A DNA stretch of 64,000 nt from Heptranchias perlo (taxonomy: Eukaryota): the NCBI RefSeq assembly GCF_035084215.1, contig NC_090346.1:4464001-4528000 (forward strand). Direction: 5' to 3'. Numbering within the stretch: position 1 is the first letter of the stretch; every line of letters begins with the position of its first letter. Below, one piece after another: positions 588-61,857 of the stretch. Below the pieces are notes generated by a model. That model searched no databases. It was not told the origin of the DNA and worked only from the letters and a program-made list of their open reading frames with translations. Made by a program: the position numbers and the translations under genes.

Positions 588-2107
588 ATAGCCCAGATAT
601 GTCCTGTCCACAAAAATCAGGACAAATCCAATCCGGCCAATTACCGCCCCATCAGCCTACTCTCAATCATCAGCAAAGTGATGGAAGGTGTCGTCGTTAG
701 TGCTATCAAGTGGCACTTACTCACCAATAACCTGCTCACCGATGCTCAGTTTGGGTTCTGCCAGGACCACTCGGCTCCAGACCTCATTACAGCTCATTAG
801 AGCTGAATTCCAGAGGTGAGGTGAGAGTGTCTGCCCTTGACATCAAGGCAGCATTATGATGGAGGGAAGGTCATTGATAAAGCAGCTGAAGATGGTTGGG
901 CCTAGGACACTGCCCTGAGGAACTCCTGCAGCAATGTCCTGGGGCTGAGATGATTGGCCTCCAACAACCACTACCATCTTCCTTTGTGCTAGGTATGACT
1001 CCAGCCACTGGAAAGTTTTCCCCCCTGATTCCCATTGACTTCAATTTTACTAGGGCTCCATGGTGCCACACTCGGTCAAATGCTGCCTTGATGTCAATCC
1101 GGCCAATTACCGCCCCATCAATCTACTCTCAATCACCAGCAAAGTGATGGAAGATGTCCAACCATATTCAGCTGCTTCATCAATGACCTTTCCTCCATCA
1201 TAAGGTTAGAAATGGGGATGTTCGCTGATGATTGCACAGTGTTCAGTTCCATTTGCAACCCCTCAAATAATGAAGCAGTCGGTGCCCACATGCAGCAAGA
1301 CCTGGACAACATCCAGGCTTGGGCTGAGAAGTGGCAAGTAACATTCGCGCCAGAAAAGTGCCAATGGCCATCTCCAACAAGAGAGAGTCTAACCACCTCA
1401 CCCTTGACATTCAACGGCATTACCATCGCTGAATCCCCCACCATCAACATCCTGGGGGTCACCATTGACCAGAAACTTAACTGGACCAGCCACATAAGTA
1501 CTGTGGCTACAAGAGCAGGTCAGAGGCTGGGTATTCTGCGGCGTGTGACTCACCTCCTGACTCCCCAAAGCCTTTCCACCATCTACAAGGCACAAGTCAG
1601 GAGTGTGATGGAATACTCTCCACTTGCCTGGATGAGTACAGCTCCAACAGCTCTCAAGAAGCTAGACACCATCCAGGACAAAGCAGCCCACTTGATTGGC
1701 ACCCTATCCACCACCCTAAACATTCACTCCCTCCACCACCGGCGCACAGTGGCTGCAGTGTGTACCATCCACAGGATGCACTGCAGCAACTCGCCAAGGC
1801 TTCTTCGACAGCACCTCCCAAACCCGCGACCTCTACCACCTAGAAGGACAAGAGCAGCAGATGAGCACCATCACCTCCAAGTCACACACCATCCCAACTT
1901 GGAAATATATCGCCGTTCCTTCATCGTCGCTGGGTCAAAATCCTGGAACTCCCTTCCTAACAGCACTGTGGGAGAACCTTCACCACACAGACTGCAGCGG
2001 TTCAAGAAGGCGGCTCACCACCACCTTCTCAAGGGCAATTAGAAATGGGCAATAAATGCTGGCCTCGCCAGCGACGCCCACATCCCATGAATGAATAATA
2101 AAAAAAG
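588..2107 (+). mobile_element. 5'-truncated, internally rearranged copy of CR1-group LINE family B
   Basis: NYRPISLLS, FADD, YKAQVRSVMEYS, ...HHHLLKGN*, 3' tail ending in an A-run; inverted block 856-1097. Confidence 0.9.
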
Positions 2108-11043: not shown

Positions 11044-13790
11044 GGGTACAGTAGCCTAGTGGTTATGATACTGAATTAGCAACCCAGAGGTCATGAGTTC
11101 AAATCCTATCATGGCAAGTCGTGGGCTAGTGCCACGAAAGCTCTCATATTGAGCCGGAAATTGTTTTAAAAAGAACGGTGAACTCAACAGCGTTCACCGT
11201 TATTAGTGGCCAAATGAAAGAGCAAATTCGCACACATGCAGCCAAATGTGGAAATCCGGAACTTGCTCTTCATGGCTCGTCGGCAATCTGACAGGGATAT
11301 CGCCAGCTGCAATCATCATAATCAATGGACCAGCGCCAACTTGCTCTTCTGCCCAGCTGGAAACTAACTAATATCATCACAAAACAGGTACGCTTAAATA
11401 TACCAGGTCTAAACGAAGTTTTAACAGTAAGTCTTAATAATTGCCAAACAACTAAAAATTTACTTTTAAAAATGTGGAGTCTCATTACTATTTATTTTAA
11501 TAATGTTTGGTCATTAAATTTTTTTTAAATTAAAAAATTAAATACTTTTTTTAACTTCTTCCGTCTGTCTCTTTTATTTAATTCGATACTTTGTACTTTT
11601 TTTGCTGTCTATAACTTTTTTTTACAAACGATTTTATTGTAGCTTTCACTTCCTGGTTTTTATGTTGCCACTTGTACTTCGAGATTTGGGGCCCGATATT
11701 ACCAGGGAGGCGGGTTGGCAGCAGGGGGTTGATTGGGCGCGTGAAATCGGTGGGTTTGGCACACGATCGTAAGTAAATTGAAGCCACTTACCTTGGCTTC
11801 CGGGTTTCGCGCTAGAAAGTTGCGCAGCGGGTGGAATGCGCACCCGCATCATAGGCTGTCAGCTGGAGGAGCCCTATTTAAAGGGGCAGTCCTCCACCGA
11901 CAGCATAGAGCAGCATGGGGACGGCTGCTCCCAGGTTTAATGATGCCTCACTCCAGGTCTTACTGGATGGGGTGAGGAGGAGGAGGAGGGAGATCTTCCA
12001 CCCGGCGGACGGGAGGAAGTGGCCTGCCTCTGCCACCATGAAGACCTGGCTCGAGGTGGCGGAGGAGGTCACCAGCACCACCAACATATCACGCACCTGC
12101 ATACAGTGCAGAAGGCGCTTCAATGACCTAACCAGGTCAGCCGAAGTGAGTACACTTACTCATTCCCCTACACTCCGTCTGTCACATCATCGCCCCCAAC
12201 CCACATCTTCTTCTGCACTGCCAACACTACTCTATCACATCACTCCTCACACCCACTGAACCCTCATCCTCATCTTACCTGCACCTACTCACCTCCCCAG
12301 TACTCATCCCACCACTACCACTCAACCCAATCCTCATACAATCTCATGGCTCTGTCTCATACAATCTCATGGCTCTGTCTCATACTCACCCTCTGATGCA
12401 ACTCTTTCACGGTCAGCCTCACCCCACCTGCCACTGCCTGTGTTGCAGCCACAGGGCATGCATCACGTATGTGTAGTAGGAAGCATAAGGCAAACGTGTT
12501 GTGAGCATGAAGGGGATGTACAAGAGTGTTTGAGGGTCTGTCATGGTTTTTACTTTTATTTGATTTCTGATCAACTCACATTACATATTATATTGTCACC
12601 ACTACTGCCACGTCTTGGCCAATCTTGACTGGCTTGTGCAATAATGCCCTTTCATGAGGTTCTCCATGAACACCCTTGATGCCACCAATTGGGTCACCCT
12701 ACAGTGGGTGTATGTGTAGTTGCACGGCTACTTTGTGCAGGTGTCTGTTGCACACCACTGTGATGTGTAGCTCCACGTGGCAGAGGTGGACGGCATGCCT
12801 GGCAATGTTGCTCGTCCTCCAACGGAGTGATGAATGCAGCTATGGAACCTCCCCCCCCCCCATCCTCACGGTGTGAGTGGGAGGGGGTCCACAAAGTAGG
12901 TAAATGTGTTTGGACAGCAGAGTTTAGGGTATGATGTAATAATTTTGAGTGTGGACACAACTGCATGGCAGGCAAAACTTTGTCTGAGGTGACAGAGTGC
13001 CCTGCTGCAATGAATGAGGTATTCCCCTCAATTATCAAGGAATCCTCTGCATCTCCCAATGGCTGCTGACTGAAACACATCTGCAACAACAGGGAGTGTT
13101 TCCCACAGCATGGGAAACACGCTGAGGAGAGTCCAAAATCACATCCCTGCTAAAATCTCTTCCCAATGAGATCTGTCAACGAACTCAAATAACTCCCTAA
13201 CTATCTAAACTGTCATCCAGCAGGCTTTAATTGCCGGTGGGAGTCCCGCATGCAGGGGCTGCGCGTGCACCGATTCGTGTCATTGGGGAACCTGGAAGTG
13301 GGCGGGTTGGCGCCAAGTTCTGGATTCACTGCGGGATTACCCAATTTTAGGAACCCCCCTGCCACGAACGCACCCACTCGGCCATCCCAAAATTGACCCC
13401 TTTGACTCTTCGTGGTGATTCAAGGATGCTAAGCTGATTGGTCAAGGGGAGACATCGATCCTCTTGCTTATTCCACGGGTCCTAGCTTCACTGGAGCAAA
13501 CGCTGGGCTTTTCTCAGCTTCTTATTAGAGGACATTCCCTCAGTAAAGACCACGGTAAGTTAGTGGGTGAGTATAAATCTATGGAGTGGCCAGCGACCTT
13601 GGCATTTATGGAGCAAAGTTGTAAAAACCCAACTGGTTCACTATTTCAGAAGGAAGTTCACCTCCCCTGCTGGCCTACCTGTGACTCCAGTCTCACACCA
13701 CGTGGTCGGCTTTTAGCTCTCCCAGAGCAACCTTGGATGGGCAATAAATGCTGCCTTGCCAGTGCTTCTGTCATCCCAAGATCAAATGTT
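11044..13790 (+). mobile_element. Split tRNA-headed SINE related to LINE family B (11044-11151 and 13619-13790), interrupted by nested DNA elements
   Basis: Head GGGTACAGTAGCCTAGTGGTTATG...GAGTTCAAATCC resembles the LINE B head. The second part carries LINE B 5'UTR motifs (GTAAAAACCCAACTGGTTCAC, GTGACTCCAG) and the LINE B tail GGGCAATAAATGC. Confidence 0.7.
11688..13400 (+). mobile_element. Non-autonomous Harbinger-like element, copy 1, with Myb/SANT exon (11915-12145)
   Basis: Imperfect termini GGGGCCCGATATT / AAAATTGACCCC, flanking TTT/TTT; AAPRFNDASLQVLLDGV...W.EVA...QCRRRFNDL Myb/SANT-like domain followed by a GTGAGT donor; collinear with 38671-41147. Confidence 0.8.
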
Positions 13791-14236: not shown

Positions 14237-15792
14237 GTAAGTCCGGGTGTTGCTGAGACTTGGGGTGAGGTGGGGGAGTTTTATCAGTTCAACTTTTAAA
14301 CGGGATTTAGTTGTTAGTAAAAATGGCGAGTTTAGTTGAAGTGCGCAACAACCCGGCGCCCGACCACACCGTCTGTCTAACTTCATCATTCGTGCACTTT
14401 TATTGCCGAGCGCGGCGATGACGAACTTTCCGCCGGCTGCCCCGCTTCCTTTTTCAGTGTAAAAGCCGCCGCGGTGCCCGGCTCAGTGACCGTCCGCCGA
14501 GGGGCAGGTCCTGGCGGGGGTGTCCGCCGGGCGTTTGACTGAGTCGCTTCTGGTCCAGCTTCGGACCGGACTGTCTGGAAATTTCTAACATGGAAGCCAG
14601 ACACTAAACGTCTGTAAGTATTGGGTAAAGTCTGACACGCACACATTTAATTCAGTAGAGCATATCATTTTAAAAAATAATTCTTGATGTGGACATTGCT
14701 GGCGAGGCCGGCATTTATTGCCCATTCCTAATTACCCTTGAGAAGGTGGTGGTGAGCCGCCTTCTTGAACCGCTGCAGTCCGTGTGGTGAAGGTTCTCCC
14801 ACAGTGCCGTTAGGAAGGGAGTTCCAGGATTTTGACCCAGCGACGATGAAGGAACGGCGATATATTTCCAAGTCGGGATGGTGTGTGACTTGGAGGGGAA
14901 CGTGCAGGTGGTGTTGTTCCCATGTGCCTGCTGCTCTTGTCCTTCTAGGTGGTAGAGGTCGCGGGTTTGGGAGGTGCTGTCGAAGAAGCCTTGGCGAGTT
15001 GCTGCAGTGCATCCTGTGGATGGTGCACACTGCAGCCACAGTGCGCCGATGGTGAAGGGAGGGAATGTTTAGGGTGGTGGATGGGCTGCCGATCAAGCGG
15101 GCTGTTTTGTCCTGGATGAACTACTGGTGTGTTGTCGCTGCACCCATACAGGCAAGTCACGAGTATTCCATCACATTCCTGACTTGTGACTTGTAGGTGA
15201 GCCACTGACCACAGAGTACCCAGCCTCTGACTTGCTCTGGTAGCCATGGCATTTATGTGGCTGGTGAGTTGAGTTTCTGATAAATGGTGATCCCCAGGAT
15301 GTTGATGGTGCAGGATTTGGTGATGGTAATGCCATTGAATGTCATGTTGAGGTGGTTAGGCTCTCGCATGTTGAAGATGGTTATTGCCTGGCACTTATGT
15401 AGTTTGAATGTTATTTGCCATTTATCAGCCCGAGCCTGTATGTTGTCCAGGTCTTGCTGCAACTCTTGCCCAGATCTTGTTGCAATTATTTTTCTTACTT
15501 CCCCTCCCTCTCCTTTTTGCCTGAAAGGGCTGACTCCCTTCAGGGCTATGGTTCCATGGCTGCTGGGGACCTTCCTGGATTTTCTGTATGCCACAGAATT
15601 TTTTGAATCTGGACAGGGAGTGTGGGTATTTATCCATGAAGTGCATCATAGCCAAGCCTGATCTAATCCTCACCCATCATTCACAAACATGTACATCAGC
15701 GGCGCATACTGAATAGCGATCTTGAATGATTTTTCCTCACTCTAACCCAAGAGGCCAATTGTTGTCTTCTAATAAGTGTCAGCTGTGTCTCT

Positions 15793-15823
<31 letters not shown>

Positions 15824-18800
15824 CTGTGTTCAAGTCCCACTTCAGAGACTTGAGCATGTAATCCAGGCTGACACTACAGAGCAGTACTGAGGGAGCACTC
15901 CACTGTCAGAGGTGCGGTCTTTCGGATGAGTCGTTAAACCGAGGCCCCGTCTGCTCTATCAGGTGGATGTAAAAGATCCCATGGCATTATTTTGAAGCAG
16001 AGCAGAGGAGTTATTCCCGGTGTCCTGGGGCCAATATTTAACCCTCAACCAACATCATCTGGTCATTATCGCATTGCTGTTTTTGGGACTTTGCTGTGCA
16101 CAAATTGGCCGCGTTTCCTACATTATAACAGTGATAACACTTCAAAAATATTTAATTGGCTTAAAGCGCTTTGGGACAACCTGAGGTTGTGAAAGATGCT
16201 ATATAAATGCAAGTTTATTAATGCCACGCTAGCTCAGATTAGTTATCTTAGTGCAGAACCAGAATCAAACCTGGGAGATTTTATTCTGTATGACTTCGTG
16301 CTATTCTGATAGCCAAGATTGTTATATGTAATCCTGCGTTATTTGGATTTGCACTTGGCAGGTAATTGAGGCACTGCTGATAACATTGATTTGTTTTAAA
16401 TTGATGAATCTATTTGTGTAGACCAGTTGTTACTATATTTACATCCTGGATGGCAGTATAGCAAAGCAGTGCATTTAAAGCAGTGTCATGCAGCTCACCA
16501 AATTATTTTGGAATAAGTTGAAGGCTGGTGTTTGCTGATTGTCATTTTATGACACCCACTTCAAGATATTTTATTATATTTTCCTAAGTGTGCAATGGGA
16601 TGTAGGAGAAACTGACCATGTAATTTTGTCTTATAGCACATTGTATTTACAGTGATATGGGGACATGTTAATATCTCCTGTCATTGGTCTAAATGTTATT
16701 GGACATGTTGTTCATTTTCAATTTTGTTGACTGAATGTTAGACTCCTTTAAACATTGTTTCTTTTCAATACAGGTAAATACATTTGTTCAAAGTGTGGGC
16801 ATGAATTGTTTTCAAGTCAGGCTAAGTATAACCATTCCTCACCATGGCCTGCTTTTACTGAAACCATTCATCTGGACAGTCTATCTAAAAGCAAGGATGG
16901 CAAAGATGCCCTAAAGGTAGGAGGATGTCATTGTGGTATTAAATGGAAAATGTAAGATTATTTCGTGTGTATCTGTTAGTATTTGCCATTACCTGGCCTG
17001 GACCATAATCAGCAGCAATGCATGGCCAGTGCACTGTGACAGGAAACTGGGTCCATTTTTAATGCACTCCTTTTAACTCCGTTTTACTGCTGTAGCAGTA
17101 AAATAACTTTCTGCTTTTTGGATGGGAATCCTGACAAAGCTTTTGACAGCTACTGATCTGGCTTGCACCTTGACTACTAGATCACTATAAAAGATGGGAG
17201 GGGGAGAGAGAATGTATGATTTAAAAATATACAACCAGTAACCTAATGAGTAATGAACTGAATGTGTGAGCTTTCTGACATCACAGAATTCACAATAAAA
17301 ACACACAGCTTAATGAACTTGGTGCTTTCCTGCTTAATTGCAAAACTTCAGGACAGCTTGACAAATTTCATTGCATCTTTGGAGTACCTACCATCTACTG
17401 GCAAGGCTGCATAAAATGATTGTGATCATTTTGAAAAAGGTGCCTAAGTAGAACATGTTAATTTTAAAATCACTTTATTTCAGGTTTCTTGTGGAAAATG
17501 TGGGAATGGACTTGGTCACGAATTTCTCCATGACGGGCCCAAGCGAGGCCAGTCACGTTTCTGAATATTCAGCAGCTCGTTGAAATTTGTCCCCAAAGGT
17601 ATGTGCATTGTGGCCAATTCAGTTTACAACAGCTCTATAAATGGCTGAAGAAAAATAACTTCTCACTAGTGCATTGTTTTTTCTCTCCCCATTTATTTTG
17701 AATATTCATTTCAGGTTAGTTTTATAAATTTGAATCCAGTCTACCTAAGCCAGTTTGAAGCTGGAACCTACAGTAAGGAACAATAAGATTAACATGAAAT
17801 TATTGCACTTAATAAAATTCCTGTGTCACTGGATCAGAACTGTTTGCAAGCTAGATTTTGTAACATCCCTTTCTGTCCCCAATAAAGTTGAACTTGGCTT
17901 TAAAAATAACTTGTGGACTTGTTATAATATCCTTTATTTCTGCACATTTAAGTTGATGAAGCAATTTTTTAAAAAAATAATTGGGGCACTGTTTTTGATG
18001 GTAAGTTTATTTTCTCCTGCAGTTAGTGTTGACATTTCAACATCCAATCAATTCTGCTTGGTTTTCTGCCATGTTATATTTATCTAGTGTAACTCCTGTG
18101 TTTTGCTGAATCACTAGTTGGGGGAGGGTCAAAACTGGCAATATGACTGTCGTTGGTTTTACACACAAGATACCTAAATCAGTATTGTATAATAAAATAC
18201 ATCATCAAATAATCAATTAAACTGTAATTTGTATGATAAGGCTATTGCATACAATTTTATATTCAGGTTAAAATAAACACCCAAAAAAGAGTGGAGCGGA
18301 GGAAAAGGCTGCAGAATTGGGGAGAATCAGGGGTCCTGACTATGACCATGATCCCCATTTTCAAAATAAGGTGACAAAGCAGACCTAGACAGTTACAGAT
18401 CTATTGTCTTCACAAAAGCACGGGGAATAATGGAATCAACTGTCAATAATAAATTTGATTACCTGTATGATAACTCAGTTATATAGCAGCGAACGTAGAA
18501 TCAGAGAGGGGAATATCCTATTGATCAACTTTCTTGACTTATTTGAGTGTAACATCCCAAGTGAACTGCCTTTAACAAGTATACCTAGACTTCCAAGAAA
18601 TCTTTGATAAAAGTTCCGCGTGAAGGCTTCTTAAGCTTAAAGTTGTGGGGGATTCAAGCTAAGGCATGGAAAGGATAAGAATTTGGCCGTAGGCTAGGAA
18701 GAAGTGGGTGTTTGTTAAGGAAATTATATGGAGGATCGGATGAGTGATGTATGGAGTGCCCCAGGATCAATGTCTGAGCCCTGTTGTCTCTAATTTATAT

Positions 18801-23660: not shown

Positions 23661-23979
23661 GTGAGCTACTCTTTAAATAATATCTTGGAAAACCATTTTC
23701 TGTTTTTTAATCAAAACACAATATCTTTATGATGCTACCTTTGGTATGAAAGGTAAATGTTCATTCATGTGCTCTCTGCCAGCATGCTTAGTAATAATTG
23801 CAATGGGGTTACAATTCATGTGCATATTTGAAACATTGCATTTATCTGGACCTACCCCCTTTTAACAAAATAGACCTGAATATTTTTAATCTTAAAAAAA
23901 AATCACTTTCACCTTTCTGGGCTGTTATCAGCTGGAAGGTAATGACGGAGTCAGGGCCACAGGATGACTTCCAGTGACA

Positions 23980-24167
23980 GTGTCAGCCTTGATCTGATAC
24001 CATTCTTGGCTCTGAATCAGAAGATTTTGGATTCAAGGTCCACTCCAAGACTTAAGCACATAATCTCAGCTGACATTCCTGAGGGAGCGCTGCACAGGTG
24101 GAGGTGCCATCTTTCGGATGACACATTAAATCGAGATCCCATCTGCCCTCTCGGCGAATGTAAAAGA
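23980..24167 (+). mobile_element. Deu-domain SINE 5' part, interrupted by LINE family B; resumes at about 28014-28135
   Basis: Core breaks at TGTAAAAGA and continues as ATTCTGTGGCACTATTC at 28014. Confidence 0.75.
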
Positions 24168-27100
24168 TTTTTTTTATTCGTTCATGGGATGTGGGTGTCG
24201 CTGGCGAGGCCGGCATTTATTGCCCATCCCTAATTGCCCTTGAGAAGGTGGTGGTGAGCCGCCGCTGCAGTCCGTGTGGTGACGGTTCTCCCACAGTGCT
24301 GTTAGGAAGGGAGTTCCAGGATTTTGACCCAGCGACGATGAAGGAACGGCGATATATTTCCAAGTTGGGATGGTGTGTGACTTGGAGGGGAACGTGCAGG
24401 TGGTGTTCCCATGTGCCTGCTGCTCTTGTCCTTCTAAGTGGTAGAGGTCGTGGGTTTGGGAGGTGCTGTCGAAGAAGTCTTGGCGAGTTGCTGCAGTGCA
24501 TCCTGTGGATGGTACACACTGCAGCCACTGTGCGCCGGTGGTAAAGGGAGTGAATAGGGTGGTAGATGGGGTGCCAATCAAGTGGGCTGCTTTATCTTGG
24601 ATGGTGTCGAGCTTCTTGAGTGTTGTTGGAGCTGCACTCATCCAAGCAAGTGGAGAGTATTCCATCACATTCCTGACTTGTGCCTTGTAGATGGTGGAAA
24701 GGCTTTGGGGAGTCAGGAGGTGAGTCACTCGCCGCAGAATACCCAGCCTCTGACCTGCTCTCGTAGCCACAGTATTTATATGGCTGGTCCAGTTAAGTTT
24801 CTGGTCAATGGTGACCCCCAGGATGTTGATGGTGGGGGATTCGGCGATGGTAATGCCGTTGAATGTCAGGGGGAGGTGGTTAGACTCTCTTGTTGGAGAT
24901 GGTCATTGCCTGGCACTTATCTGGCGCGAATGTTACTTGCCACTTATGAGCCCAAGCCTGGATGTTGTCCAGGTCTTGCTGCATGCGGGCTCGGACTGCT
25001 TCATTATTTGAGGGGTTGCGAATGGAACTGAACACTGTGCAGTCATCAGCGAACATCCCCATTTCTGACCTTATGATGGAGGGAAGGTCATTGATGAAGC
25101 AGCTGAAGATGGTTGGGCCGAGGACACTGCCCTGAGGAACTCCTGCAGCAATGTCCTGGGGCTGAGATGATTGGCCTCCAACAACCACTACCATCTTCCT
25201 TTGTGCTAGGTATGAGTCCAGCCACTGGAGAGTTTTTCCCCCTGATTTCCATTGACTTCAATTTTACTAGGGCTCCTTGGTGCCATACTCGGTCAAATGC
25301 TGCCTTGATGTCAAGGGCAGTCACTCTCACCTCACCTCTGGAATTCAGCTCTTTTGTCCATGTTTGGACCAACGCTGTAATGAGGTCTGGAGCCGAGTTG
25401 CCCTGGCGGAACCCAAACTGAGCATCAGTGAGCAGGTTATTGGTGAGTAAGTGCCGCTTGATAGCACTGTCGACAACACCTTCCATCACTTTGCTGATGA
25501 TTGAGAGTAGACTGACGGGGCAGTAATTGGCCGGATTGGATTTGTCCTGCTTTTTGTGGACAGGACCTACCTGGGCAATTTTCCACATTGTCGGGTAGAT
25601 GCCAGTGTTGTAGCTGTACTGGAACAGCTTGGCTTGAGGCGCAGCTAGTTCTGGAGCACAAGTCTTCAGCACTACAGCTGGGATGTTGTCGGGGCCCATA
25701 GCCTTTGCTGTATCCAGTGCACTCAGCCGTTTCTTGATATCACGTGGAGTGAATCGAATTAGCCAAAGACTGGCTTCTGTGATGGTGGGGATATCGGGAG
25801 GAGGCCGAGATGGATCATCCACTTGGCACTTCTGGCTGAAGATGGTTGCAAACGCTTCAGCCTTGTCTTACGTGCTGGACTCCGCCATCATTGAGGATGG
25901 GGATGTTTGCAGAGCCTCCTCCTCCCGTTAGTTGTTTAATTGTCCACCACCATTCACGACTGGATGTGGCAGGACTGCAGAGCTTTGATCTGATCCATTG
26001 GTTGTGGAATCGCTTAGCTCTGTCTATAGCATGTTGCTTCAGCTGTTTAGCATGCATGTAGCCCTGAGTTGTAGCTTCACCAGGTTGGCACCTCATTTTT
26101 AGGTACGCCTGGTGCTGCTCCTGGCATGCTCTTCTACATTCCTCATTGAACCAGGGTTGATCCCCTGGCTTGTTGGTAATGGTAGAGTGAGGAATATGCC
26201 AGGCCATGAGGTTACAGATTGTGCTGGAATACAATTCTGCTGCTGCTGATGGCCCACAGCGCCTCATGGATGCCCAGTTTTGAGCTGCTGGATCTGTTCT
26301 GAATCTATCCCATTTAGCACGGTGGTAGTGCCACACAACACGTTGGATGGTGTCCTCAGTGCGAAGACGGGACTTCATCTCCACGAGGACTGTGCGGTGG
26401 TCACTCCTACCAATGCTGTCATGGACAGATGCATTTGCGACAGGTAGATTGGTGAGGACAAGTAAGTTTTTCCCTCGTGTTGGTTCGCTCACCACCTGCC
26501 GCAGGCCCAGTCTAGCAACTATGTCCTTCAGGACTCGGCAAACTCGGTCAGTAGTGGTGCTACCGAGCCACTCTTGGTGATGGACATTGAAGTCCCCCAC
26601 CCAGAGTACATTTTGTGCCCTTGCTACCCTCAGTGCTTCCTCCAAGTGGTGTTCAACATGGAGGAGGACTGATTCATCAGCTGAGGGAGGACGGTAGGTG
26701 GTAATCAGCAGGAGGTTTCCTTGCCCATGTTTGACCTGATGCCATGAGATTTCATGGGGTCCAGAGTCAATGTTGAGGACTCCCAGGGCTACTCCCTCCT
26801 GACTGTATATCACTGTACCGCCACCGCTGGTGGGTCTGTCCTGCCGGTGGGACAGGACATACCCAGGGATGGTGATGGACGAGTCTGGGACGTTGGCTGA
26901 AAGGTATGATTCTGTGAGTATGGTTATGTCAGGCTGTTGCTTGACTAGTCTGTGGGACAGCTCTCCCACTTTTGGCACAAGTCCCCAGATGTTGGTAAGG
27001 AGGACCTTGCAGGGTCGACTGGGCTTGGTGTTTTGCCGTTGTCGTGTCCGGTGCCTAGTGGTCCGATGCCGGCTGGTCCATCCGGTTTTATTCTTATTAT

Positions 27101-27451
27101 GACTTTTCGTAGCGAGATTTTACAACTGAGTGGCTTGCTAGGCCATTTCAGAGGGCAATTAAGAATCAACCACATTGCTGTGGGTCTGGAGTCACATATA
27201 GGCCAGACCGGGTAAGGATGGCAGGTTTCTTTCCCTAAAGGACCTCAGTGAACCAGATGGGTTTTTACGACAATCCGGTAGTTTCATGGCCATCATTACT
27301 GATACTAGTATTTTAATTCCAGATTTTTATTTAATTAATTGAATTTAATTAATTAATTGAATTTTTTTAATTCACCAGCTGCCGTGGCGGGATTTGAACT
27401 CATGACTCTGGATTACTAGTCCAGTAACATAACCACTATGCTACCGTACCC
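24168..27451 (-). mobile_element. Full-length (frameshifted) CR1-group LINE family B: tRNA-like head, single APE-endonuclease + RT reading frame, 3' tail with A-run
   Basis: Endonuclease motifs TNIWGL, LTESYL, YRPPS, GDFNVHH, SDH (25857-27000); RT motifs KAMGPDNIP, LDIKAAFDRVWH, GVPQGSVLGP, FADD; A-box TAGCATAGTGG and B-box GAGTTCAAATCC at 27443-27390. Confidence 0.93.
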
Positions 27452-28013
27452 AGTTTATATGGCTGGTCCAGTTAAGTTTCTGGTCAATGGTGACCCCCAG
27501 GATGTTGATGGTGGGGGATTCGGCGATGGTAATGCCGTTGAATGTCAAGGGGAGGTGGTTAGACTCTCTTGTTGGTGATGGTCATTGCCTGGCACTTATC
27601 TGGCGCGAATGTTACTTGCCACTTATAAGCCCAAGCCTGGATGTTGTCCAGGTCTTGCTGCAGGCGGGCTCGGACTGCTTCATTATTTGAGGGGTTGCGA
27701 ATGGAACTGAACACTGTGCAATCATCAGCGAACATCCCCATTTCTGACCTTATGGTGGAGGGAAGGTCATTGATGAAGCAGCTGAAGATGGTTGGGCCTA
27801 GGACACTGCCCTGAGGAACTCTTGCAGCAATGCCCTGGGGCTGAGATGATTGGCCTCCAACGACCACTGCCATCTTCCTTTGTGCTAGGTATGACTCCAG
27901 CCACTGGAGAGTTTTCCCCCTGATTCCCATTGACTTCAATTTTACTAGGGCTCCTTGGTGCCACACTCGGTCAAATGCCGCCTTGGTGTCAAGGGCAGTC
28001 ACTCTCACCTCAC
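27452..28013 (-). mobile_element. Second RT fragment of LINE family B abutting the 5' end of the full-length copy
   Basis: Near-duplicate of about 24771-25335 (VRVTALDTKAAFDRVWH...FADD...QKLNWTSHI). Confidence 0.9.
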
Positions 28014-28289: not shown

Positions 28290-31200
28290 AGTCATAGAAA
28301 GGTTACAGCATGGAATGAGGCCATTCGGCCCATTGAGTCCATGCCGGCTCTATGCAAGAGCAATCCAGCTAGTCCCACTCCCCCACCCTTTCCCCGTAGC
28401 CCTGCAATTTTTTTTCCTTTCAAGTACTTATCCAGTTCCCTTTTGAAGGCCATGATTGAATCTGCCTCCACCACCCCCTCGGGCAATGCATTCCAGATCC
28501 TAACCACTCGGTGTGTAAAAAAGTTTTTCCTCATGTCACCTTTGGTTCTTTTGCCAATCACCTTAAATCTATGTCTTCTGGTCCCTGATCCTTCCACCAA
28601 TGGGAACAGTTTCTCTCTACTCTGAATAGACCCTTCATGATTTTGAATACCTCTATCAAATCTCCTCGCATCCGTCTCTGTTCCAAGGAGAACAACCCCA
28701 GCTTCTCCAGTCTATCCATGTAACTAAAGTCCCTCATCCCTGGAATCAATCTAGTAAATCTCTTCTGCACCCTCTCTAAGGCCTTCACATCTTTCCTAAA
28801 GTGTGGTGCCCAGAACTGGACACAATACTCCAGTTGTGGCCGAACCAGTGTTTTATAAAGGTTCATCAGGACTTCTATACTTTTACACTCTGCCTCTATT
28901 TATATGCTTTTTTAACCGCTTTCTCGACCTGCCTGCCACCTTTCAACGATTTGTGCACATAAACTCCCAGCTCTCTCTGTTCCTGTATGCCTTTTAGAGT
29001 TGTGCCCTCTAGTTTATATTGCCTCTCCTCATTCTTCCTACCGAAATATATCACTTTGCATTTTTCTGCATTAAATTTCATCTGCCACGTGTCCGCCCAT
29101 GCCGCCAGTCTGACCTTATCCTCTTGAAGTCTATCACTATCCTCCTCACTGTTTACTACCCTTCCAAGTTTTGTGTCATCTGCAAATTTGGAAATTGTGC
29201 CCTGTACACGCAAGTCCAAGTCATTAATATATATCAAGAAAAGTAGTGGTTCCACCACTGTACACCTCCCTCCAGTCCGAAAAACAACCGTTCACCACTA
29301 CTCTCCGTTTCCTGTCCTTAGCCAATTCTGTATCCATGTTGCTACTGCCCCCTTTGTTCCATGGGCCACAATCTTGATGATAAGCCTACCGTGCGGCACT
29401 TTATCAAACGCCTTTTGAAAGTCCATATACATCACATCAACTGCATTGCCCTCATCTAACCTCTCTGTTACCTCATCAAAAAACTCTTATCAGGTTAGTT
29501 AAACACGATTTGCCTTTAACAAATCCGTGCTGGCTTTCACTAATCAATCCACACTTGTCCAAGTGACGGCTAATTCAGTCCTGGATTATCGTTTCTTAAA
29601 GTTTCCCCACCACTGAGGTTAAACTGCCTGGCCTATAGTTGCTGGGTTTATCCTTACACTTTTTTGAAGGGTGTAACATTTGTAATTGTTACTGTTTACA
29701 TGCCTGTAGAAGACTTTTGGATTCCCTTTTATGTTGGTCGTCAGTCTATTCTCATACTCTCTCTTTCCCCCATTATTTTTCACTTCTCCTCTGAACTTTC
29801 TATATTCTGCCTGGCTCTCACTTGTGTTATCAACCTGACATCTGTCACACACCCCTTTCTTTCCCGTTTCATCTTACTCACTATTTCTTTTGTCATCCAG
29901 GGAGCTCTGGCTTTAGTGGCCCTACCTTTCTGCCTCGTGGGAATGTGCCTAGACTGTACCCGAACCATCTCCTCTTTAAAGGCTGCCCACTGTTCAATTA
30001 TAGTTTTGCCTGCCAATCTTTGATTCCAATTTACCCGGGCCAGATCTGTTCTCATCCCATTGAAATTGGCCCTCCTCCAATTGAGTATTTTTATTTTAGA
30101 GTGGTCCATGTCCTTTTCCATAACTATTCTAAACCTTATGATACTGTGATCGCTGCTCCCTAAATGCTCTCCCACTGACACTTGCTCCACTTGGCCCACC
30201 TCCTTCCTCGTTGGGCCGGAAACGTATTGGTCAAGAAAGTTATCCTGAACACATTTCAATAATTTCTCCCCCTCTTTGCCCCTTATGTTATTGTTAACCC
30301 AGTCTATATTAGGGTAGTTGAAGTCCCCAATTATCACTACTCTATGGCTTTTGCACCTCTCTGTAATTTCCCTCCTAATTTGCTCTTCCGTATCTTTCCC
30401 ACTAGTTGGTGACCTATAGAATACACCCAGTAGTGTAACGACACCTCTTTTATTTCTTAACTCTAACCAAATAGATTCTGTCCTTGACTCCTCCAGGACA
30501 TCCTCTCTCTCCAGTACTGCAATATTCTCCTTAATCAATACTGTCAACCCCCGCCCCTCCTTTATTTCCTTCCCTATCTTTCCTGAACACCTTGTATCCA
30601 GGAATATTTAGTACCCATCCTGTCCTGTTTTGAGCCAGGTCTCTGTTATCGCCACAACATCGTATTCCATGTGGCTATTTGTGCCTGCAGCTCACCAACC
30701 TTGTTTACCACACTTCGTGCGTTTACACACATGCACTGCAAACCAGTCTTAAACTTTCTTGTATTCTCTCTTAGTCTGATCCCACCTAATACTGCTTACT
30801 GTACTATCACTTGCTTTAGTGCTATTTTTCTCCTCTGATTCTTTGTGCCTCTTGTTTCTCCTTTTCATTGCTACATCCTGGTGCCCATCCCCTTGCCAAA
30901 TTAGTTTAAACCCCCCCTCCAGCACTAGCGAACCTCCCTGCGAGGACATTGGTCCCAGCTCTGTTGAGGTGCAACACGTCTGGCCTGTACAGGTCCCACC
31001 TTCCCCAGAACTGGTCCCAATGCCCCAGGAATCTGAAACCCTCCCTCCTGCACCATCTCTGCAGCCACGCATTCATCTGCTTTATCCTCCTATTTCTATA
31101 CTCGTTAGCGTGTGGCACCGGGAGTAATCCGGAGATTACTACCTTTGAGGTCCTGCTTCTTAATCTCTTTCCTAACTCCTTAAAATCTGCCTGCAGGACC

Positions 31201-31905
31201 TCATCCTTCTTTCTACCTATGTCATTGGTACCAATATGGACCACGACCTCTGGCTGTTCACCACACCCTCCCCCCCCCCCCCCCCCCAAGAATATTCTGT
31301 AGCCGCTCAGTGATATCCTTGCTCCTGGCGCCAGGGAGGCAACATACCATCCTGGAATCACGTCTGCAGCCGGAGAAACGCCTGTATGCTCCCCTAACCA
31401 CAGAATCTCCTGTCACTATTGCTCTCCTGACCTTTCTTCTCCCCGCCCCGTACAGCTGAACCATTCATGGTGCTGTGGACTTGGCTCTAGCTACACTCCC
31501 CAGAGGAACCCTCTCCCTCACCAATATTCAGAATTGAATACTGGTTAGAGAGTAGAGAGTGAGATGCACTCAGAACTCCTGCACTACCTGCCTGGTCCTT
31601 CTTGTCTGTCTGGTGGTCACCCAGTCCCTCTCTGCCTGCACTCTCAAGCTGTGGGATGACCACCTCCTGAAATCCAGAGCTCGAGCTCCTCCAGCTGACG
31701 ACACTTCCTGCACCTGCAGTTGTCCAGGACACGGGAAGCGTCCTGGAGTTCCCACATAGCACAGGCTTGGGTGTGAGCTGCCCTGCCATGCCTCCATTTA
31801 TTAGATTGTTTACTAACCTTAACAAAAATAAATTAAGCCTTAAAAAAACACTCAACAGAAAAAGAAACACTCACCAGCTACCAGCCAATCAGCTCCTTCC
31901 CCTGT
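28290..31905 (-). mobile_element. Near full-length CR1 LINE: ORF1 (SGNH esterase-like) + ORF2 (APE-RT), disrupted
   Basis: ORF1 remnants GDSVVRG, HIGTNDIG, D.LHLN (30906-31460); ORF2 GDFNYPNIDW, SDH, FADDTKL, YKTLVRPQLEYC; CR1-type 3' tail. Confidence 0.93.
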
Positions 31906-48891: not shown

Positions 48892-51889
48892 ATAGTATCA
48901 CAGTATGCTACAGCATAGGAGGAGGCCATTCGGCCCATCGTGCCTGTGCCGGCTCTTTGAAAGAGCTATCCAATTAGCCCCATTCCCCTGCTCTTTCCCC
49001 ATAGCCCTGTAAATTTTTTCCCTTCAAGTATTTATCCAACTCCGTTTTGAAAGCTACTATTGAATTTGCTTCCACCACCCTATCAGGCAGCGCATTCAAG
49101 ATCATAACAACTCGCTACGTAAAAAAATGCTCCTTCATGTCGCCTCTGGTTCTTTTGCCAATCATCTTAAATCTGTGTCCTCTGATTACTGTCCATCTTG
49201 CCTCTGGAAACAGTTTCACCTTATTTACTCTATCAAAAGCTCCTGATTTTGAACACCTCTATCAAATCTCCTCTTAACCTTCTCTGCTCTAAGGCGAACA
49301 ACCCCAGCTTCTCCAGTCTTTCCACATAACTGAAGTTCCTCATCCCTGGTACCATTCTAGTAAATCTCCTCTGCAACATCTCTAAGGTCTTGACATCCTT
49401 CCTAAAATGTGGTGCTCAGAATTGAACACAATATTCCAACTGAGGCCTAACCAGTGTTTTATAAAGGTTTAGCATAACTTCCTTTCCTTTGTATTCTATG
49501 CCTCTATTAATAAAGCCAAGGATCCCATATGCTTTTTTAACAGCCTTCTCAACTTGTCCTGCCACCTTCAAAGATTTGTGTGCATATACCCCGAGGTCTC
49601 TCTATTCCTGCACTCCCTTTAAAATTGTACCATTTAGTGCATATTGCTTCTCCTCATTCTTCTTATCAAAATGTATCACTTCATAATTTCATCTGCCATG
49701 TGTCTGTCCATTTCACCAGTCTGTCTATGTCCTCCTGAAGTCTGTTACTATCCTCCTCACTGTTTACTACATTTCCGAGTTTCATATCATCTGCAAACTT
49801 TGAAATTATACCCTGTATACCTAAGTCCAAGTCATTAATACATATCAAAAAGAGCAGTAGTCTTAATACCGACCCCTGGGGAACACCACTGTATACTTCC
49901 CTCCAGTCTGATAAACAATCGTTCACCACTATTCTCTGCTTTCTGTCCCCCAGCCAATTTTGTATCCATGCTATCACTGTCCCTTTAATCCCATGGGCTT
50001 TAATTTTTCTAACAAGTCTATTATGTGGTACTTTATCAAATGCCTTTTGAAAGTCCGTATACACGTCAACCCTCATCAACACTCGCCATTACTTCATAAA
50101 AGAACTCAATCAAGTTAGTCAAACACAACTTTCCTTCAACAAATCTGTGCTGATTTTAATTTATTAGCCCATACTTTTCCAAATGCTAATTAATTTTGCC
50201 CAGATTATTGTGTCTAAAAGTTTCCCCACCACCGACGTTAGGCTGACTACCCTGTAATTGCCGGGTTTATCCCTCTTCCCCCTTTTTTGAACAGGGGTGC
50301 AACTTTTGCAATCCTCCAGTCCTCTGGCACTGCCCCCATATCTAAGGAGGATTAGAAGATTGTGGCCAGAGCCTCTGCAATTTCCACCCTTACTTCCCTC
50401 AGTAACCCAGGATGCATCCCTTCTGGACTGGGTGACTTTTCTACTTTGAGTGCTGGCAATCTTTTAAGTACCTCCTCTTCATCTATTTTTATCCTATCCA
50501 ATATCACCACTACCTCCTCCTTTAATGCTACAATGGCAGCATCCTCTTCTCTATTGAAGACCGATGCAAAGTATTAATTTAGTACCTCAGCCAATCCCGC
50601 TGCCTCCACAAGTAGATCTCCTTTGTTGTCCCTAATCGGCCCATCCTTCCTTTGACTACCCTTTTACTATTTATATATTTATAAAATACTTTTGGGTAAT
50701 GTTAACCGCTAACCAATTGTCATACTCTCTCTTTGCCCCTCTTACTTCCTTTTTTAGATCTCCTCTGTACTTTCTGTTTTCAGCCTGGTTCTCTACTGTA
50801 TTAAGAACCTTACATTTGTCATAAGCCTCCTTTTTCTGTTTCATTTTAATCTCTACATCTTTAGTCATCCAGAGAGCTCTAGCTTTGGATGCTCTTCCTT
50901 TCCCCCTCATGGGAATGTGTCCACTTTGTACCAGAACCATCTCCTCCTTGAAGGCCTCTCATTGTTCAATTACTGTTTTGCCATCAATTTTTGATTCCAA
51001 TCCACCTGGGCAAGATCCCTTTTTAACTCACTGAAGTTAGACCTCCTCCAGTTAAGTATTTTTATGCTTGTTCTTTTCCATAACTATTCTAAACCTGATG
51101 ATATTATGATCACTGTTCCCCAAATGTTCCCCCACTGAAACATACTCCACTTACCCCACTTCATTCCCCAGAACTAGATCCAGCACTGTTTTGTTCCTCG
51201 TTGGGCTGGGAACACACTGATCAAGAAAGTTCTCTTGTACATATTTCAGGAATTCCTCTCCCTCTTTGCCCTTTACACTGTTGCTATTCGAGTCTATACT
51301 AGGATAATTTAAGTTCCCCATTATCATTTCTCTATGGTTATTGCATCTTTCTGTAATTTGCCTCCAAATTTTCTCCTCTATCTCCTTCCCACTATTTGGT
51401 GGCCCATAGTATACACCCAGTAGCGTAATAGCTCCTTTATTGTTCCTTAATTTCAACCAACCAAATTCTTTCTTTGACCCCTCAACTACATCATCTCTTT
51501 CCCGTGCTGTAATAGTGTCTTTGATCAATACTGCCACCCTCCTCCTTTCTTTCCTTCCCTATCTTTCCTGAATATCTTGTAGCCAGGAATATTAAGTTCC
51601 CAATCCTCCCTTTCTTTGAGCAAGGTCACTGTTATTGCCACTATATCATAGTCCCATATGGCGACGTGTGCCTGCAGCTCACCAACCTTATTTACCACGC
51701 TCTGTGCATTTAAGCACATGCACTTCAAACCCATCTTAAACTGCCTTGCATTTGCCCCCTGTCTGATCCCTCTATTTCTGAACTATCCTTTACCCTAGCG
51801 CTCTGTGTCTCTCCCAGTCCTCTGTGCACCTTGTTTCTCCTCTCTAATGTTTCATCCTGGTGCCCATCCCCCTGCCAAATTAGTTTAAA
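48892..51889 (-). mobile_element. CR1 LINE, ORF2 region (APE-RT), disrupted and 5'-truncated at the ORF1 end
   Basis: [39 protein letters not shown]; collinear with 28290-30910. Confidence 0.92.
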
Positions 51890-52096
51890 TTAATTAATGC
51901 AAAACTGTTTAAATATCACTCTTTTCCCCCTCTCTTAATTCTCTTTTCATTAAAGAAGTCACATGGGTAGGAGCAGCAGCCTCGTGGTTCTTTGCCCAAG
52001 TAAACGTTCTTCATTTCAGAGTTTCAACAAAGGAAAGGAAAAGACTTACATTTATATAGCGCCTTTCACGACCTCAAGACGTCCCAAAGCGCTTTA

Positions 52097-60202: not shown

Positions 60203-61857
60203 TGCTTTCGGGGTAGATTTGAAAATCCAATTTGAGTAAGCAACCTTCAATCTGTTTCACTAGTTTATCTCCTTTCAACGGAAAACAATCAAATAAAATG
60301 ATTAGCGATTTTTCAGCTCATCCTTAGTGACAATTAAGGTTGCATTTTCCTGTTAGACTTGACGATGAATGACTTCATCCATTTTGTGGATCTTCAAATT
60401 GCTACTTCCTGTATGTTCATATTTAAAAATATTGATGTGAAAAAATGCATAGAATGTGCATTAAATGTGCACTGATTGTAAAATGCATTTTCTGTATTGC
60501 CTCCAAAAACTAAAACATTGTTTGCTATCACTAAGAAACATCAAAACAGTGTGATCTCTCTGAAAATGTTGATCAAAAACTAGCAAACTAACAGGATGCC
60601 CTTCAGGCCAATTACTCACGGAAGGGCTGATCTAACCTAATTACTTCCATTAAAATGGCACTACCACACCTGGAAGGGTTGGTTGGATGATTTTTGTAGT
60701 AATTATTTTCATTTGTTTTGGCCGTCAGTTCAAATAATTAATTTGGGGCGCAATTGCTGTAAATTTTGGAGGTGTTGAACCCTGTTTCCTTTCTCTGTTC
60801 CTAAACACCCGGAGTAAGAGCCCTTGTCAGATCAAAGGATGCCCAGAAAGATTGGTAATGCAAGATAGTGCAGAGAGAAAATACTGCTTTCAGAGTAAAG
60901 CCAGACTGAATATGAGCCAGGACATACCATAAATTCTTTTTATGTGCACTAATACCATCCCCTTTCAAGCCCTGTCTCTTATTACATAATTGCAAGCCAT
61001 TAAAGATGCACTATATTTTATTTCTCACTTATGAGATACAGGAAGGGCTGGTGCATTTTTAAAAATGTATTTTAAAAAGAGTTTGAATTTTCAAGACCTA
61101 ATTCACCAAATCATTGAAATATACATATGAAAAATATAAGAACAATGGTAAGCATCCCTTATTTTACTTCATGAATAATAGAATCAGTTGAATACCAAAT
61201 ATTAATGTTCAAACTGTTGAATGGAAAAATACCAATGTAATACAACCTGAAATATGGAAATGGCAAGAACTTGAGAGATACATGATGTAATGTCAAAGCA
61301 TCAAAAAAGAACTGTTGAAATGGCAACACTAGAACTAATATAATCCTTTAGGCATTTTGTTTTGTTAAGACATTCCTAATATAGTAACCAACAGATGTAC
61401 TTGTCAGTGAAGAAATCTCCAAATTGCAGATACATAATACATTTATCATGTGTAACTAAATGCACTTGGGCTGCAATTTAAATGAGATTGTAGTGTTCAT
61501 TTTTGTTGGACTGAGCTTTACAAAATGGGGTATATGGCAAAATATGTTTCTTTGAAGGATTTACATGTTTTTAAGTTAATTCACTTTGATTTTTTGTGGC
61601 CTGTCAATGCTCAGAATGGAACATTGCACTTTATTTCTTCTCACCATCTTTCTCCCCACCCCTCCTCTCCTGAAGCCATTGACTCCTAATTGGGGTTTGG
61701 TTCTGCAGGCACTGCTCATCCTCTGTAACCGCCTCCAAGTGACCACTACTCATTTGTGAGTCTTGACAGAGATATTCAAGAGTGGCCATGGGGACTTCAA
61801 AAAATGGCTGATCTAACCTAATTATGTGAATGAAGATCGCACTACCACACCTGGAAA

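What the first reader, a model, noticed from the sequence alone, without database searches (positions are those of the whole stretch)
24168..27451. Candidate RNA polymerase III-transcribed protein-coding LINE: tRNA head, no ORF1, no TTTT on the sense strand
Seen: the element starts (minus strand, 27451) with GGGTACGGTAGCATAGTGG...CTGGA-CTAGTAA-TCCAG...GAGTTCAAATCC, i.e. an A-box, an anticodon-like arm (AGT, Thr-like) and a B-box. About 330 nt later the APE-RT frame opens, with no ORF1 and no in-frame ATG before the endonuclease NIWGL motif. Reading by eye I found no run of 4 or more T on the 3.28-kb sense strand, against about 19 runs of 4 or more A, and even the very AT-rich 5'UTR avoids TTTT. 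The sense parts of the sister copies (1160-2100, 14690-15460) also appear to lack TTTT, whereas the neighbouring CR1 copies contain several. Established: T4 or longer terminates vertebrate Pol III, and LINEs normally use internal Pol II promoters. Inference: an autonomous SINE-headed LINE under selection for Pol III read-through, needing cap-independent or non-AUG translation. I cannot tell whether this family is already catalogued.
Basis: partly seen in the sequence, partly recalled or inferred. Interest (0 to 1): 0.8.

Follow-up and report, generated by a model that had tools for sequence, protein, structure and literature searches.

The report
Shark LINE: tRNA promoter, IRES-like start
This is a broken copy of an abundant shark and ray jumping gene (a Zenon LINE) that begins with a tRNA-type promoter, has no AUG start for its only protein and lacks the stop signal of RNA polymerase III, so it is likely copied by that polymerase and likely translated from a tRNA-mimicking RNA fold of a kind described in some RNA viruses.

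Summary
Observation confirmed: 0 T4 runs against 20 A4 runs. The head is a family trait: 3,136 exact leader-ORF junctions in the genome, and 16 of 29 endonuclease-selected copies start within its first 14 nt. The family is catalogued as elasmobranch Zenon (PMC13343379). All 7 shark and ray consensus rows begin with this head, yet that paper's main text never mentions tRNA, Pol III or IRES. The lack of ORF1 is a known Zenon trait.

T4=0 alone is modest (P 0.007-0.08). T3 depletion is stronger (P 0.002-0.004), recurs in older layers, and is absent from CR1 and headless relatives.

New here: a conserved ~160-nt fold ends in a hairpin with a tRNA-Ala-like loop (C-N-AGC-N-A), followed by an in-frame GCT. 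It recurs in five elasmobranchs and two metagenome relatives about 42% identical in protein, and resembles pseudoknot I of dicistrovirus IRESs. Neither polymerase nor IRES activity was tested. This scan had already noted the tRNA head in other genomes.

The parts
24168..27451 (-). Full-length but frameshifted copy of the elasmobranch Zenon LINE (family length about 3,333 nt)
   Evidence: 2.2% from the majority line of 34 aligned copies; 5' 400 nt match published Zenon rows by reading
27386..27451 (-). tRNA-derived head; about 18 nt deleted in this copy
   Evidence: Rfam tRNA E 0.018; family start at this G
27433..27443 (-). A-box-like element
   Evidence: sequence; kept in 7 of 7 published elasmobranch rows (read by eye)
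27390..27401 (-). B-box-like element
   Evidence: sequence; canonical GGTTCGAATCC in 3 of 7 published rows, variants in the other 4
27276..27385 (-). AT-rich, fast-evolving spacer
   Evidence: 73% identity between young and old majority lines
27127..27275 (-). Conserved non-coding core, shared with the genome's SINE; candidate IRES body
   Evidence: 94% identity young vs old, equal to the endonuclease coding region; SINE copies in L069, L109, L237
27185..27257 (-). Predicted long-range helix (arms 27257-27248 and 27195-27185) with one compensatory change
   Evidence: MFE in both layers; T-A in 33 of 33 young copies, A-T in 13 of 15 old copies scored
27127..27150 (-). Hairpin with 7-nt loop C-T-AGC-A-A (loop 27141-27135), predicted anticodon-loop mimic
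   Evidence: same loop triplet in L150, L153 and in 6 of 7 published rows
27111..27122 (-). In-frame TAA (27122-27120), then the in-frame GCT (27113-27111) that is complementary to the loop AGC; predicted start region
   Evidence: frame kept downstream of GCT but not upstream, across lineages
24230..27113 (-). Single ORF2: basic N-terminal peptide, APE endonuclease (about 26993-26388), RT (about 25552-24901); 973 aa stop-to-stop in intact copies, five pieces here
24168..24229 (-). Short 3' UTR with AATAAA and A tail, shared with the SINE; T4 lies 2 nt downstream in the flank
27454..28013 (-). Fragment of a sister copy directly upstream (host site, not part of the element)
   Evidence: 97% identical to element positions 2117-2677

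Best explanation
This is an autonomous Zenon LINE of sharks and rays whose 5' end is a tRNA-type A/B-box head; it is likely transcribed by RNA polymerase III as an uncapped 3.3-kb RNA, and its single AUG-less ORF is likely translated from a conserved RNA fold predicted to mimic a tRNA-Ala anticodon loop paired to a GCU codon. SHOWN: the head, fixed start, single ORF, no AUG ahead of the endonuclease, T-run depletion, conservation of core, loop and in-frame GCT, and a SINE that shares both ends. INFERRED: TFIIIC/Pol III would start at the first G, read through the T4-free body and stop at the first flanking T4 (median 102 nt past the tail). The hairpin loop AGC would pair with the GCT 21 nt downstream and set the frame, as pseudoknot I does in type 6 IRESs, with decoding starting at or right after GCT. 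ORF2 protein would then prime reverse transcription at the 3' tail. Order of events (inferred): the leader fold is older than the head, because headless relatives carry it, and cap-independence would have let the LINE adopt a Pol III promoter. My odds: Pol III about 0.7; structure-driven start at GCT about 0.55.
For: HEAD. 10 of 29 endonuclease-selected copies start at nt 1 and 16 of 29 within nt 1-14; the other 13 start at nt 33-376. Of 47 upstream flanks, only 4 pairs share sequence up to the head: one duplicated locus and three pairs matching in opposite orientation. There are 3,136 exact junction matches, control 0. 45 of 150 endonuclease hits lie in open frames of 968 aa or more (hand count). 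The 40 old copies were picked on the leader-ORF junction, and those that reach the 5' end carry the same head. 7 of 7 published shark and ray rows have the head, with A and B boxes kept while the arm between them differs; 0 of 3 hagfish and coelacanth rows have it in their first 400 nt, and those show T4 runs (by eye). T-RUNS. Young line: T4 0 (expected 4.3), T3 7. Old line: T4 0 or 1, T3 5-6. Oldest layer (1,269 nt called, 87% identical): T4 0 (1.6), T3 4 (8.1). CR1 of the same genome: T4 11 (7.4), T3 51 (34). Headless relatives L150 and L153: T4 7 (6.5) and 4 (2.5). START. The linker before GCT is 12 or 13 nt and holds an in-frame TAA in two lineages. The codon after GCT varies (ACA, ACG, AAA, AGA). 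From GCT on, the frame is kept in 4 of 5 published species and in both layers here. Loop position 2 varies (T 21, C 9, G 2 of 33 young copies) while AGC is kept in 32 of 33. L150 and L153 each have one strong 7-nt-loop hairpin in the leader, with AGC in the same register and an in-frame GCT 23-24 nt on. The motif arises in 5 of 4,000 shuffles (rule set after seeing it). Type 6 IRES facts come from PMC10275262 and PMC12221177.
Against: There is no direct evidence of polymerase or translation. T4=0 is not significant under two of four nulls (P 0.075, 0.081), and 2 of 32 relatives examined also have no T4 (L165, L170). The layers share ancestry, so they are not independent tests. In old copies one spacer site has 4-6 T in 7 of 21 copies scored, and one majority method calls T4 there. 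The folds are not unusually stable (z -0.1 to -1.7), and RNAalifold on 61 copies returned almost no structure. Only one compensatory event was found. There is no Rfam IRES hit at E<=10, and the L1.1 motifs of type 6a-c IRESs are not in the core (read by eye). L150 has an in-frame ATG at the endonuclease start and an upstream in-frame GTG, and many distant relatives are called with a start a short way before the endonuclease. SquAca_Zenon-1 is off frame by one base after GCT, and SquAca_Zenon-3 lacks the loop. The element has an AATAAA and an A tail, as Pol II LINEs do.
Confidence: 0.48

Rival explanations
1. Pol III makes the RNA, but translation starts by a more ordinary route: scanning or re-initiation after the upstream ORFs at a near-cognate codon (ACG right after GCT here, TTG in other lineages), or a frameshift from the overlapping 76-codon ORF. 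The hairpin would then serve RNA stability or packaging.
For: ACG in a fair context follows GCT in the young family; uORFs exist. The core is also kept in non-coding SINEs, so it may have a role other than translation.
Against: No single near-cognate codon is shared. TTG is blocked by TAA in two lineages and is out of frame in whale shark; ACG is ACA or AAA in four species. The ATG of the 76-codon ORF is ACG, ACA or another triplet in 23 of 34 old copies. I saw no canonical slippery heptamer (by eye). An uncapped RNA scans poorly (established knowledge, recalled).
Confidence: 0.2
2. The captured SINE leader now works as a Pol II promoter, the RNA is capped and polyadenylated, and the lack of T4 is a by-product of a T-poor, C-ending codon style.
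For: LINEs are taken to be Pol II-transcribed (PMC5786205). T4=0 has P about 0.08 when codon counts are kept. AATAAA and an A tail are present.
Against: T3 depletion survives the codon-preserving null (P 0.002). A and B boxes are kept from rays to sharks while their spacer changes. CR1 and headless relatives show no depletion. Many upstream ATGs would hinder scanning.
Confidence: 0.2
3. The element has no promoter of its own: it is cut out of host read-through transcripts at the tRNA-like head (RNase P-like or ribozyme cleavage), which gives the exact 5' end and an uncapped RNA, much as self-cleaving ribozymes do for R2 and RTE elements.
For: Precise 5' end. Self-cleaving 5' ribozymes are known in six LINE clades (PMC5786205). 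RNA-guess runs cover the whole element.
Against: It gives no reason for T-run depletion. What is conserved is the A and B boxes, not an acceptor stem (Rfam matches model positions 7-64 only). There is no ribozyme hit in Rfam; no dedicated HDV pattern search was run.
Confidence: 0.08
4. The head is a chance neighbour: an independent SINE next to a truncated LINE.
For: SINEs with a related head are abundant.
Against: 3,136 identical junctions; same architecture in old copies and in five other species.
Confidence: 0.01

Closest known systems
Elasmobranch Zenon elements (CR1 group; Stuart et al. 2026, PMC13343379)
   Same: No ORF1, APE-RT ORF, poly-A tail, about 3.3 kb; the first 400 nt of SquAca_Zenon-1 read almost letter for letter like this family
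   Different: No difference in identity. The paper's main text does not mention the tRNA head, Pol III, T-run avoidance or the start mechanism (0 hits for tRNA, polymerase III, IRES)
tRNA-derived SINEs with LINE-derived body and tail (Bov-tA, SINE2-1_ACar, CoeSINE4; Kojima 2018, PMC5786205)
   Same: tRNA head plus LINE 5' part plus LINE 3' part; the SINEs of this genome have that layout
   Different: There the head is added to a deleted, non-coding LINE, and the paper states that SINEs cannot encode a protein. Here the coding LINE itself carries the head
Tx1 LINEs with U1/U2 snRNA heads in crocodilians (Kojima 2015, PMC4494074)
   Same: LINEs whose 5' end is a small-RNA-derived head shared with a SINE
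   Different: snRNA heads have no internal promoter, and the paper excludes Pol III for SINEU because of internal oligo-T. Here the A and B boxes are present and oligo-T is absent
Type 6 (dicistrovirus IGR) IRESs (PMC10275262, PMC12221177)
   Same: About 160 nt of conserved structure ending in an anticodon-loop/codon-like pairing next to a non-AUG start; GCU and ACA/ACU are their usual first codons
   Different: No L1.1 motifs, no Rfam match and no second or third pseudoknot shown. The predicted pairing is to GCT itself, not to the triplet before it. The 2025 survey searched RNA viromes and has 0 hits for retrotransposon
R2/RTE/Ingi LINEs with 5' HDV-like ribozymes
   Same: LINE RNAs with a defined 5' end not made by ordinary Pol II initiation; uncapped, AUG-poor translation of R2 is recalled, not read
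   Different: They self-cleave from co-transcripts; this element has a tRNA-type promoter
HE1 V-SINE / HER1 LINE of sharks (listed in PMC3747384)
   Same: Shark tRNA SINE with a LINE partner
   Different: The V domain as printed for a V-SINE in PMC5804259's supplement is not in this leader; my first guess of HE1/HER1 was dropped

Membership tests
Zenon (CR1 group) | No ORF1 | tested here: met
   Single long ORF in the majority line; no upstream extension
Zenon (CR1 group) | Poly-A tail | tested here: met
   The 35 of 39 head-selected copies that reach the 3' end finish in an A-rich run
Zenon (CR1 group) | Sequence identity to described elasmobranch Zenons | tested here: met
   First 400 nt of 7 consensus rows read by eye; the stored cells are cut at 400 nt. 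Only 27% protein identity to the neighbouring CR1
Zenon (CR1 group) | RT falls in the Zenon clade of a tree with reference elements | not tested
   No named reference proteins were available as tool sequences
Pol III type 2 (tRNA-type) transcription unit | Internal A and B boxes at workable spacing, start a few nt before the A box | tested here: met
   A box at nt 9-19, B box about 50 nt later in the majority line; Rfam tRNA E 0.018
Pol III type 2 (tRNA-type) transcription unit | No internal T4+ terminator; terminator downstream | tested here: met
   0 in the young majority line; 3 T4 in 112,951 nt of young copies against 148 expected; flanking T4 found after 35 of 35 copies. One uncertain site in old copies
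Pol III type 2 (tRNA-type) transcription unit | Pol III/TFIIIC occupancy, uncapped triphosphate RNA | not testable with these tools
   Only contigs of RNA-guess runs were available
Type 6 IRES | PKI: anticodon stem-loop mimic paired to a codon-like triplet at a non-AUG start | tested here: inconclusive
   Conserved loop AGC and in-frame GCT; pairing predicted only, and no covariation in these three pairs
Type 6 IRES | L1.1a/L1.1b motifs (6a-6c) or a match to the Rfam model | tested here: not met
   Motifs from PMC10275262 absent from the core by reading; no IRES family at E<=10
Type 6 IRES | PKII/PKIII nested pseudoknots; factor-free ribosome binding | not testable with these tools
   Too few independent lineages in hand; needs probing and toeprinting
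V-SINE (HE1) | V domain in the body | tested here: not met
   A 13-nt V-domain word from PMC5804259's supplement has 0 exact matches in 382 loci; leader unlike the printed domain by eye
Vertebrate CR1 | Esterase ORF1 and microsatellite tail | tested here: not met
   Present in the neighbouring CR1, absent here

The most novel reading that the evidence does not exclude
Elasmobranch Zenon is a fully Pol II-independent, cap-independent autonomous retrotransposon: Pol III transcribes a 3.3-kb mRNA from a captured tRNA promoter, and a factorless tRNA-mimic IRES, inherited from invertebrate Zenon-like ancestors, starts its only protein without Met-tRNAi. It would be the first such IRES outside RNA viruses, and the genome's SINE body would be the remnant of that IRES.
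Probability: 0.35. Interest if true: 0.93.

Novelty: new variant of a known kind. Interest (0 to 1): 0.8.

Why it matters
It would break the working rule that LINEs are Pol II products and that Pol III retroposons cannot code, in a family with thousands of copies and dozens of intact ORFs, conserved from rays to sharks. It offers a natural long Pol III mRNA. It also offers a cellular candidate for the factorless IRES mechanism, whose origin PMC12221177 calls unknown, and an explanation for why a SINE body stays conserved. Each step can be tested with a short reporter.

Tried and rejected
(1) HE1/HER1 and 'V domain' were my first, recalled reading; dropped. (2) A frame difference between young and old layers seen was a projection artefact; direct alignment shows the same frame. 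(3) Target-site duplications: no consistent TSD in 35 full-length copies, only scattered short matches. (4) A search with the decayed copy at 14690 returned mainly young copies (20 of 42 places fetched, 93-99% to the majority line). (5) Expression: two RNA-guess runs cover all 30 bins, but contigs show neither strand, start nor level; raw-read run X24 had nothing laid and X23 only 160 reads. No conclusion drawn. (6) In four DNA-guess runs of other organisms, listed contigs bridge the leader-ORF junction with 31+ nt on both sides in X5 and X14, but not among the pieces listed for X6 and X13. (7) Low-threshold ARAGORN on relatives gave only noise. (8) Scans of viral and prokaryote collections gave 3 distant loci each, no useful leaders. 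(9) N-termini of 36 protein relatives added no support for the Ala-Thr start beyond the L150 cluster. (10) RNAalifold on decayed copies was uninformative. (11) Ogiwara 2002 and Ruminski 2011 are not held; Ogiwara 1999 was not looked up; all three were seen as reference titles only. (12) Supplement searches for leader motifs in PMC6887750, PMC11481361 and PMC4824008 gave no hits (one file not searched); PMC5499810's supplement could not be read. (13) An alternative pairing of GGTTG with the bases just before GCT fits several species but not this family; left open.
Full report
1. OBSERVATION. The minus-strand element at 27451-24168 has no run of four T and 20 runs of four or more A. It starts with a tRNA-like stretch (Rfam E 0.018) carrying A- and B-box words. 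It encodes an APE endonuclease and an RT in five frame pieces and ends in an A tail. It sits directly behind a 561-nt fragment of a sister copy.

2. THE HEAD BELONGS TO THE FAMILY. A search of the own genome with head plus ORF start gave 40 best places; 35 of the 39 other copies fetched reach the 3' end. To avoid selecting on the head I searched with the endonuclease alone. Of 29 other copies, 10 begin at nt 1, 16 within nt 1-14, and 13 at nt 33-376. None of 47 upstream flanks reveals a longer element. The 27-nt leader-ORF junction occurs exactly 3,136 times, its reversed control 0 times. The majority line of 34 aligned copies (the window copy included; L061 and L069 were left out for large insertions) is 3,333 nt long. 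It holds one 973-codon stop-to-stop frame, whose first ATG lies about 250 codons in, and copies differ from it by 0.6-2.2%. Of 150 endonuclease hits, 45 lie in frames of 968 codons or more (hand count), so the family is young and probably active (inference). Forty older copies, selected on the junction, give a line 94% identical with the same layout. No consistent target-site duplication was found. SINEs made of the same head, core and 3' tail lie in fetched loci and appear as joints in two runs.

3. IDENTITY. PMC13343379 (seen: parts 1-2 of 8, term passages, supplement rows cut at 400 nt) reports Zenon elements in five elasmobranchs, coelacanth and hagfish, all without ORF1 and with a poly-A tail. 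All 7 elasmobranch consensus rows begin with this head and core; the 3 hagfish and coelacanth rows do not, in the part shown (read by eye). The main text has 0 hits for tRNA, polymerase III and IRES. The whale-shark preprint (passages) names CR1-Zenon-like LINEs once and has no tRNA hit. My recalled label HE1/HER1 failed: the V domain printed in PMC5804259's supplement is not in the leader. Ten literature searches (listings only unless named) showed no paper describing a tRNA-headed coding LINE or an IRES of this type in a LINE. The library lacks most subscription journals and Repbase/Dfam, and some supplements could not be read, so this is no proof of absence. This scan's earlier notes record the same head in other genomes. 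A sequence look-up and a word look-up for the IRES idea returned nothing.

4. T-RUN TEST. With 20% T, about 4 T4 runs are expected. Zero has P 0.010 (mononucleotide shuffle), 0.075 (dinucleotide), 0.081 (synonymous shuffle) and 0.007 (synonymous resampling). T3 is depleted under all four (P 0.004 or less; 0.017 for the ORF alone under dinucleotide shuffling), and TTTT is the only absent 4-mer. Old layer: T3 5-6 against 20, T4 0 or 1 depending on method. The doubtful site is a T/A slippage run in the spacer, with 4-6 T in 7 of 21 copies. Oldest layer: T4 0, T3 4 against 8 in 1,269 called bases. Controls: the genome's CR1 (20 copies) has T4 11 against 7.4 and T3 51 against 34. The two closest metagenome relatives that show their leader (L150, L153; L150's cluster is about 42% identical in protein) have 7 and 4 T4, as expected or more, and no recognisable head; 2 of 32 relatives scored also have none. 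The signal is real and lineage-specific but moderate, and the layers are not independent. A T4 follows within a median of 102 nt after 35 of 35 full-length copies.

5. HOW COULD IT BE TRANSLATED? Between young and old lines the non-coding core (nt 194-346) is 94% identical, as high as the endonuclease, while the spacer is 73% and the 9 nt before GCT are 44%. A predicted long-range helix shows one compensatory swap (T-A in 33 of 33 young copies, A-T in 13 of 15 old). The core ends in a hairpin with the 7-nt loop C-T-AGC-A-A, which has the layout of a tRNA-Ala anticodon loop (layout recalled). The complementary GCT follows 21 nt later, in frame with ORF2 and two codons after an in-frame stop. 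L150 and L153 have 11-12-bp hairpins with loops C-C-AGC-T-A and C-T-AGC-G-A and an in-frame GCT 23-24 nt on. In published rows the loop is kept in 6 of 7. The linker is 12 or 13 nt and the next codon varies. The frame from GCT onward is kept in 4 of 5 species, and in the ray row it is readable through to the endonuclease Asn. The motif appears in 5 of 4,000 shuffles (defined after the fact). In type 6 IRESs, PKI sets the frame by mimicking an anticodon stem-loop paired to a codon, and GCU, ACA or ACU are typical first codons (PMC10275262, PMC12221177; passages). Against this reading: weak folding z-scores, no Rfam IRES match, no L1.1 motifs, an ordinary ATG available in L150, and start codons called near the endonuclease in more distant relatives. 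I therefore say that it likely works like PKI, and do not file it as a type 6 IRES.

6. MECHANISM AND RIVALS. Best reading (0.48): Pol III transcription plus a structure-set non-AUG start. The fold would be older than the head and would have made capture of a Pol III promoter viable. Rivals: Pol III with near-cognate start or re-initiation (0.2); Pol II with chance T-poverty (0.2); processing out of host transcripts (0.08); chance adjacency (0.01, refuted). The public runs could not decide this. The element is in five coded organisms, the junction is bridged in two further ones, and RNA-guess contigs carry no strand or start information.

7. COMPARISON. Kojima 2018 (PMC5786205, passages) treats LINEs as Pol II and SINEs as non-coding Pol III units, with heads added to deleted LINEs. 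Kojima 2015 (PMC4494074, passages) describes Tx1 LINEs with snRNA heads but no internal promoter. PMC3747384, PMC5499810 and PMC11481361 were seen as passages, PMC6887750 as part 1 of 5, and PMC4824008 only through a supplement search; none showed this architecture in what I saw.

8. VERDICT. A known family with an unannotated and surprising anatomy: new variant of a known kind, interest 0.8. The boldest reading (a fully Pol III-made, factorless-IRES LINE) has probability 0.35.

Noticed in passing
L072, L076, L079, L082, L088, L093, L097 (family nt 160-200): 7 of 29 endonuclease-selected copies begin at nt 160-200, just ahead of the conserved core: a truncation hot zone, a second 5' end, or removal of the head.
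   Followed up: no
L043, L049, L091, L094, upstream of nt 1: 4 of 47 copies carry an inverted copy of 9-30 nt of the head directly before the 5' end, suggesting fold-back or template switching at integration.
   Followed up: partly
window 28300-31900 (-): Near full-length CR1 with esterase-type ORF1; used as control, 11 T4 in its majority line. A second, older CR1 lies at about 48900-51900.
   Followed up: partly
window 11044-11120 (+): Lone related tRNA-like head; belongs to an old SINE subfamily with the same core and tail.
   Followed up: partly
window 588-2104 (+/-): Rearranged sister copy with inversions.
   Followed up: no
window 23979-24167: The element's 3' end abuts a different repeat that recurs at about 15775-16170 and 61850-62230; probably another SINE.
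   Followed up: no
L069:2263-2628 (oriented): A young SINE (head, core to nt 319, 3' tail) inserted inside a full-length copy of its own LINE.
   Followed up: partly
L150:450-660, L153:366-500: The metagenome relatives share a short leader starting GGGTAGTGG with no ORF1; L153 lacks about 70 nt that L150 has.
   Followed up: partly
PMC13343379 supplement, EptBur_Zenon-1 and -2: Both hagfish rows show GCTACC near nt 385-395; it may be the same start motif, but the rows are cut at 400 nt.
   Followed up: no
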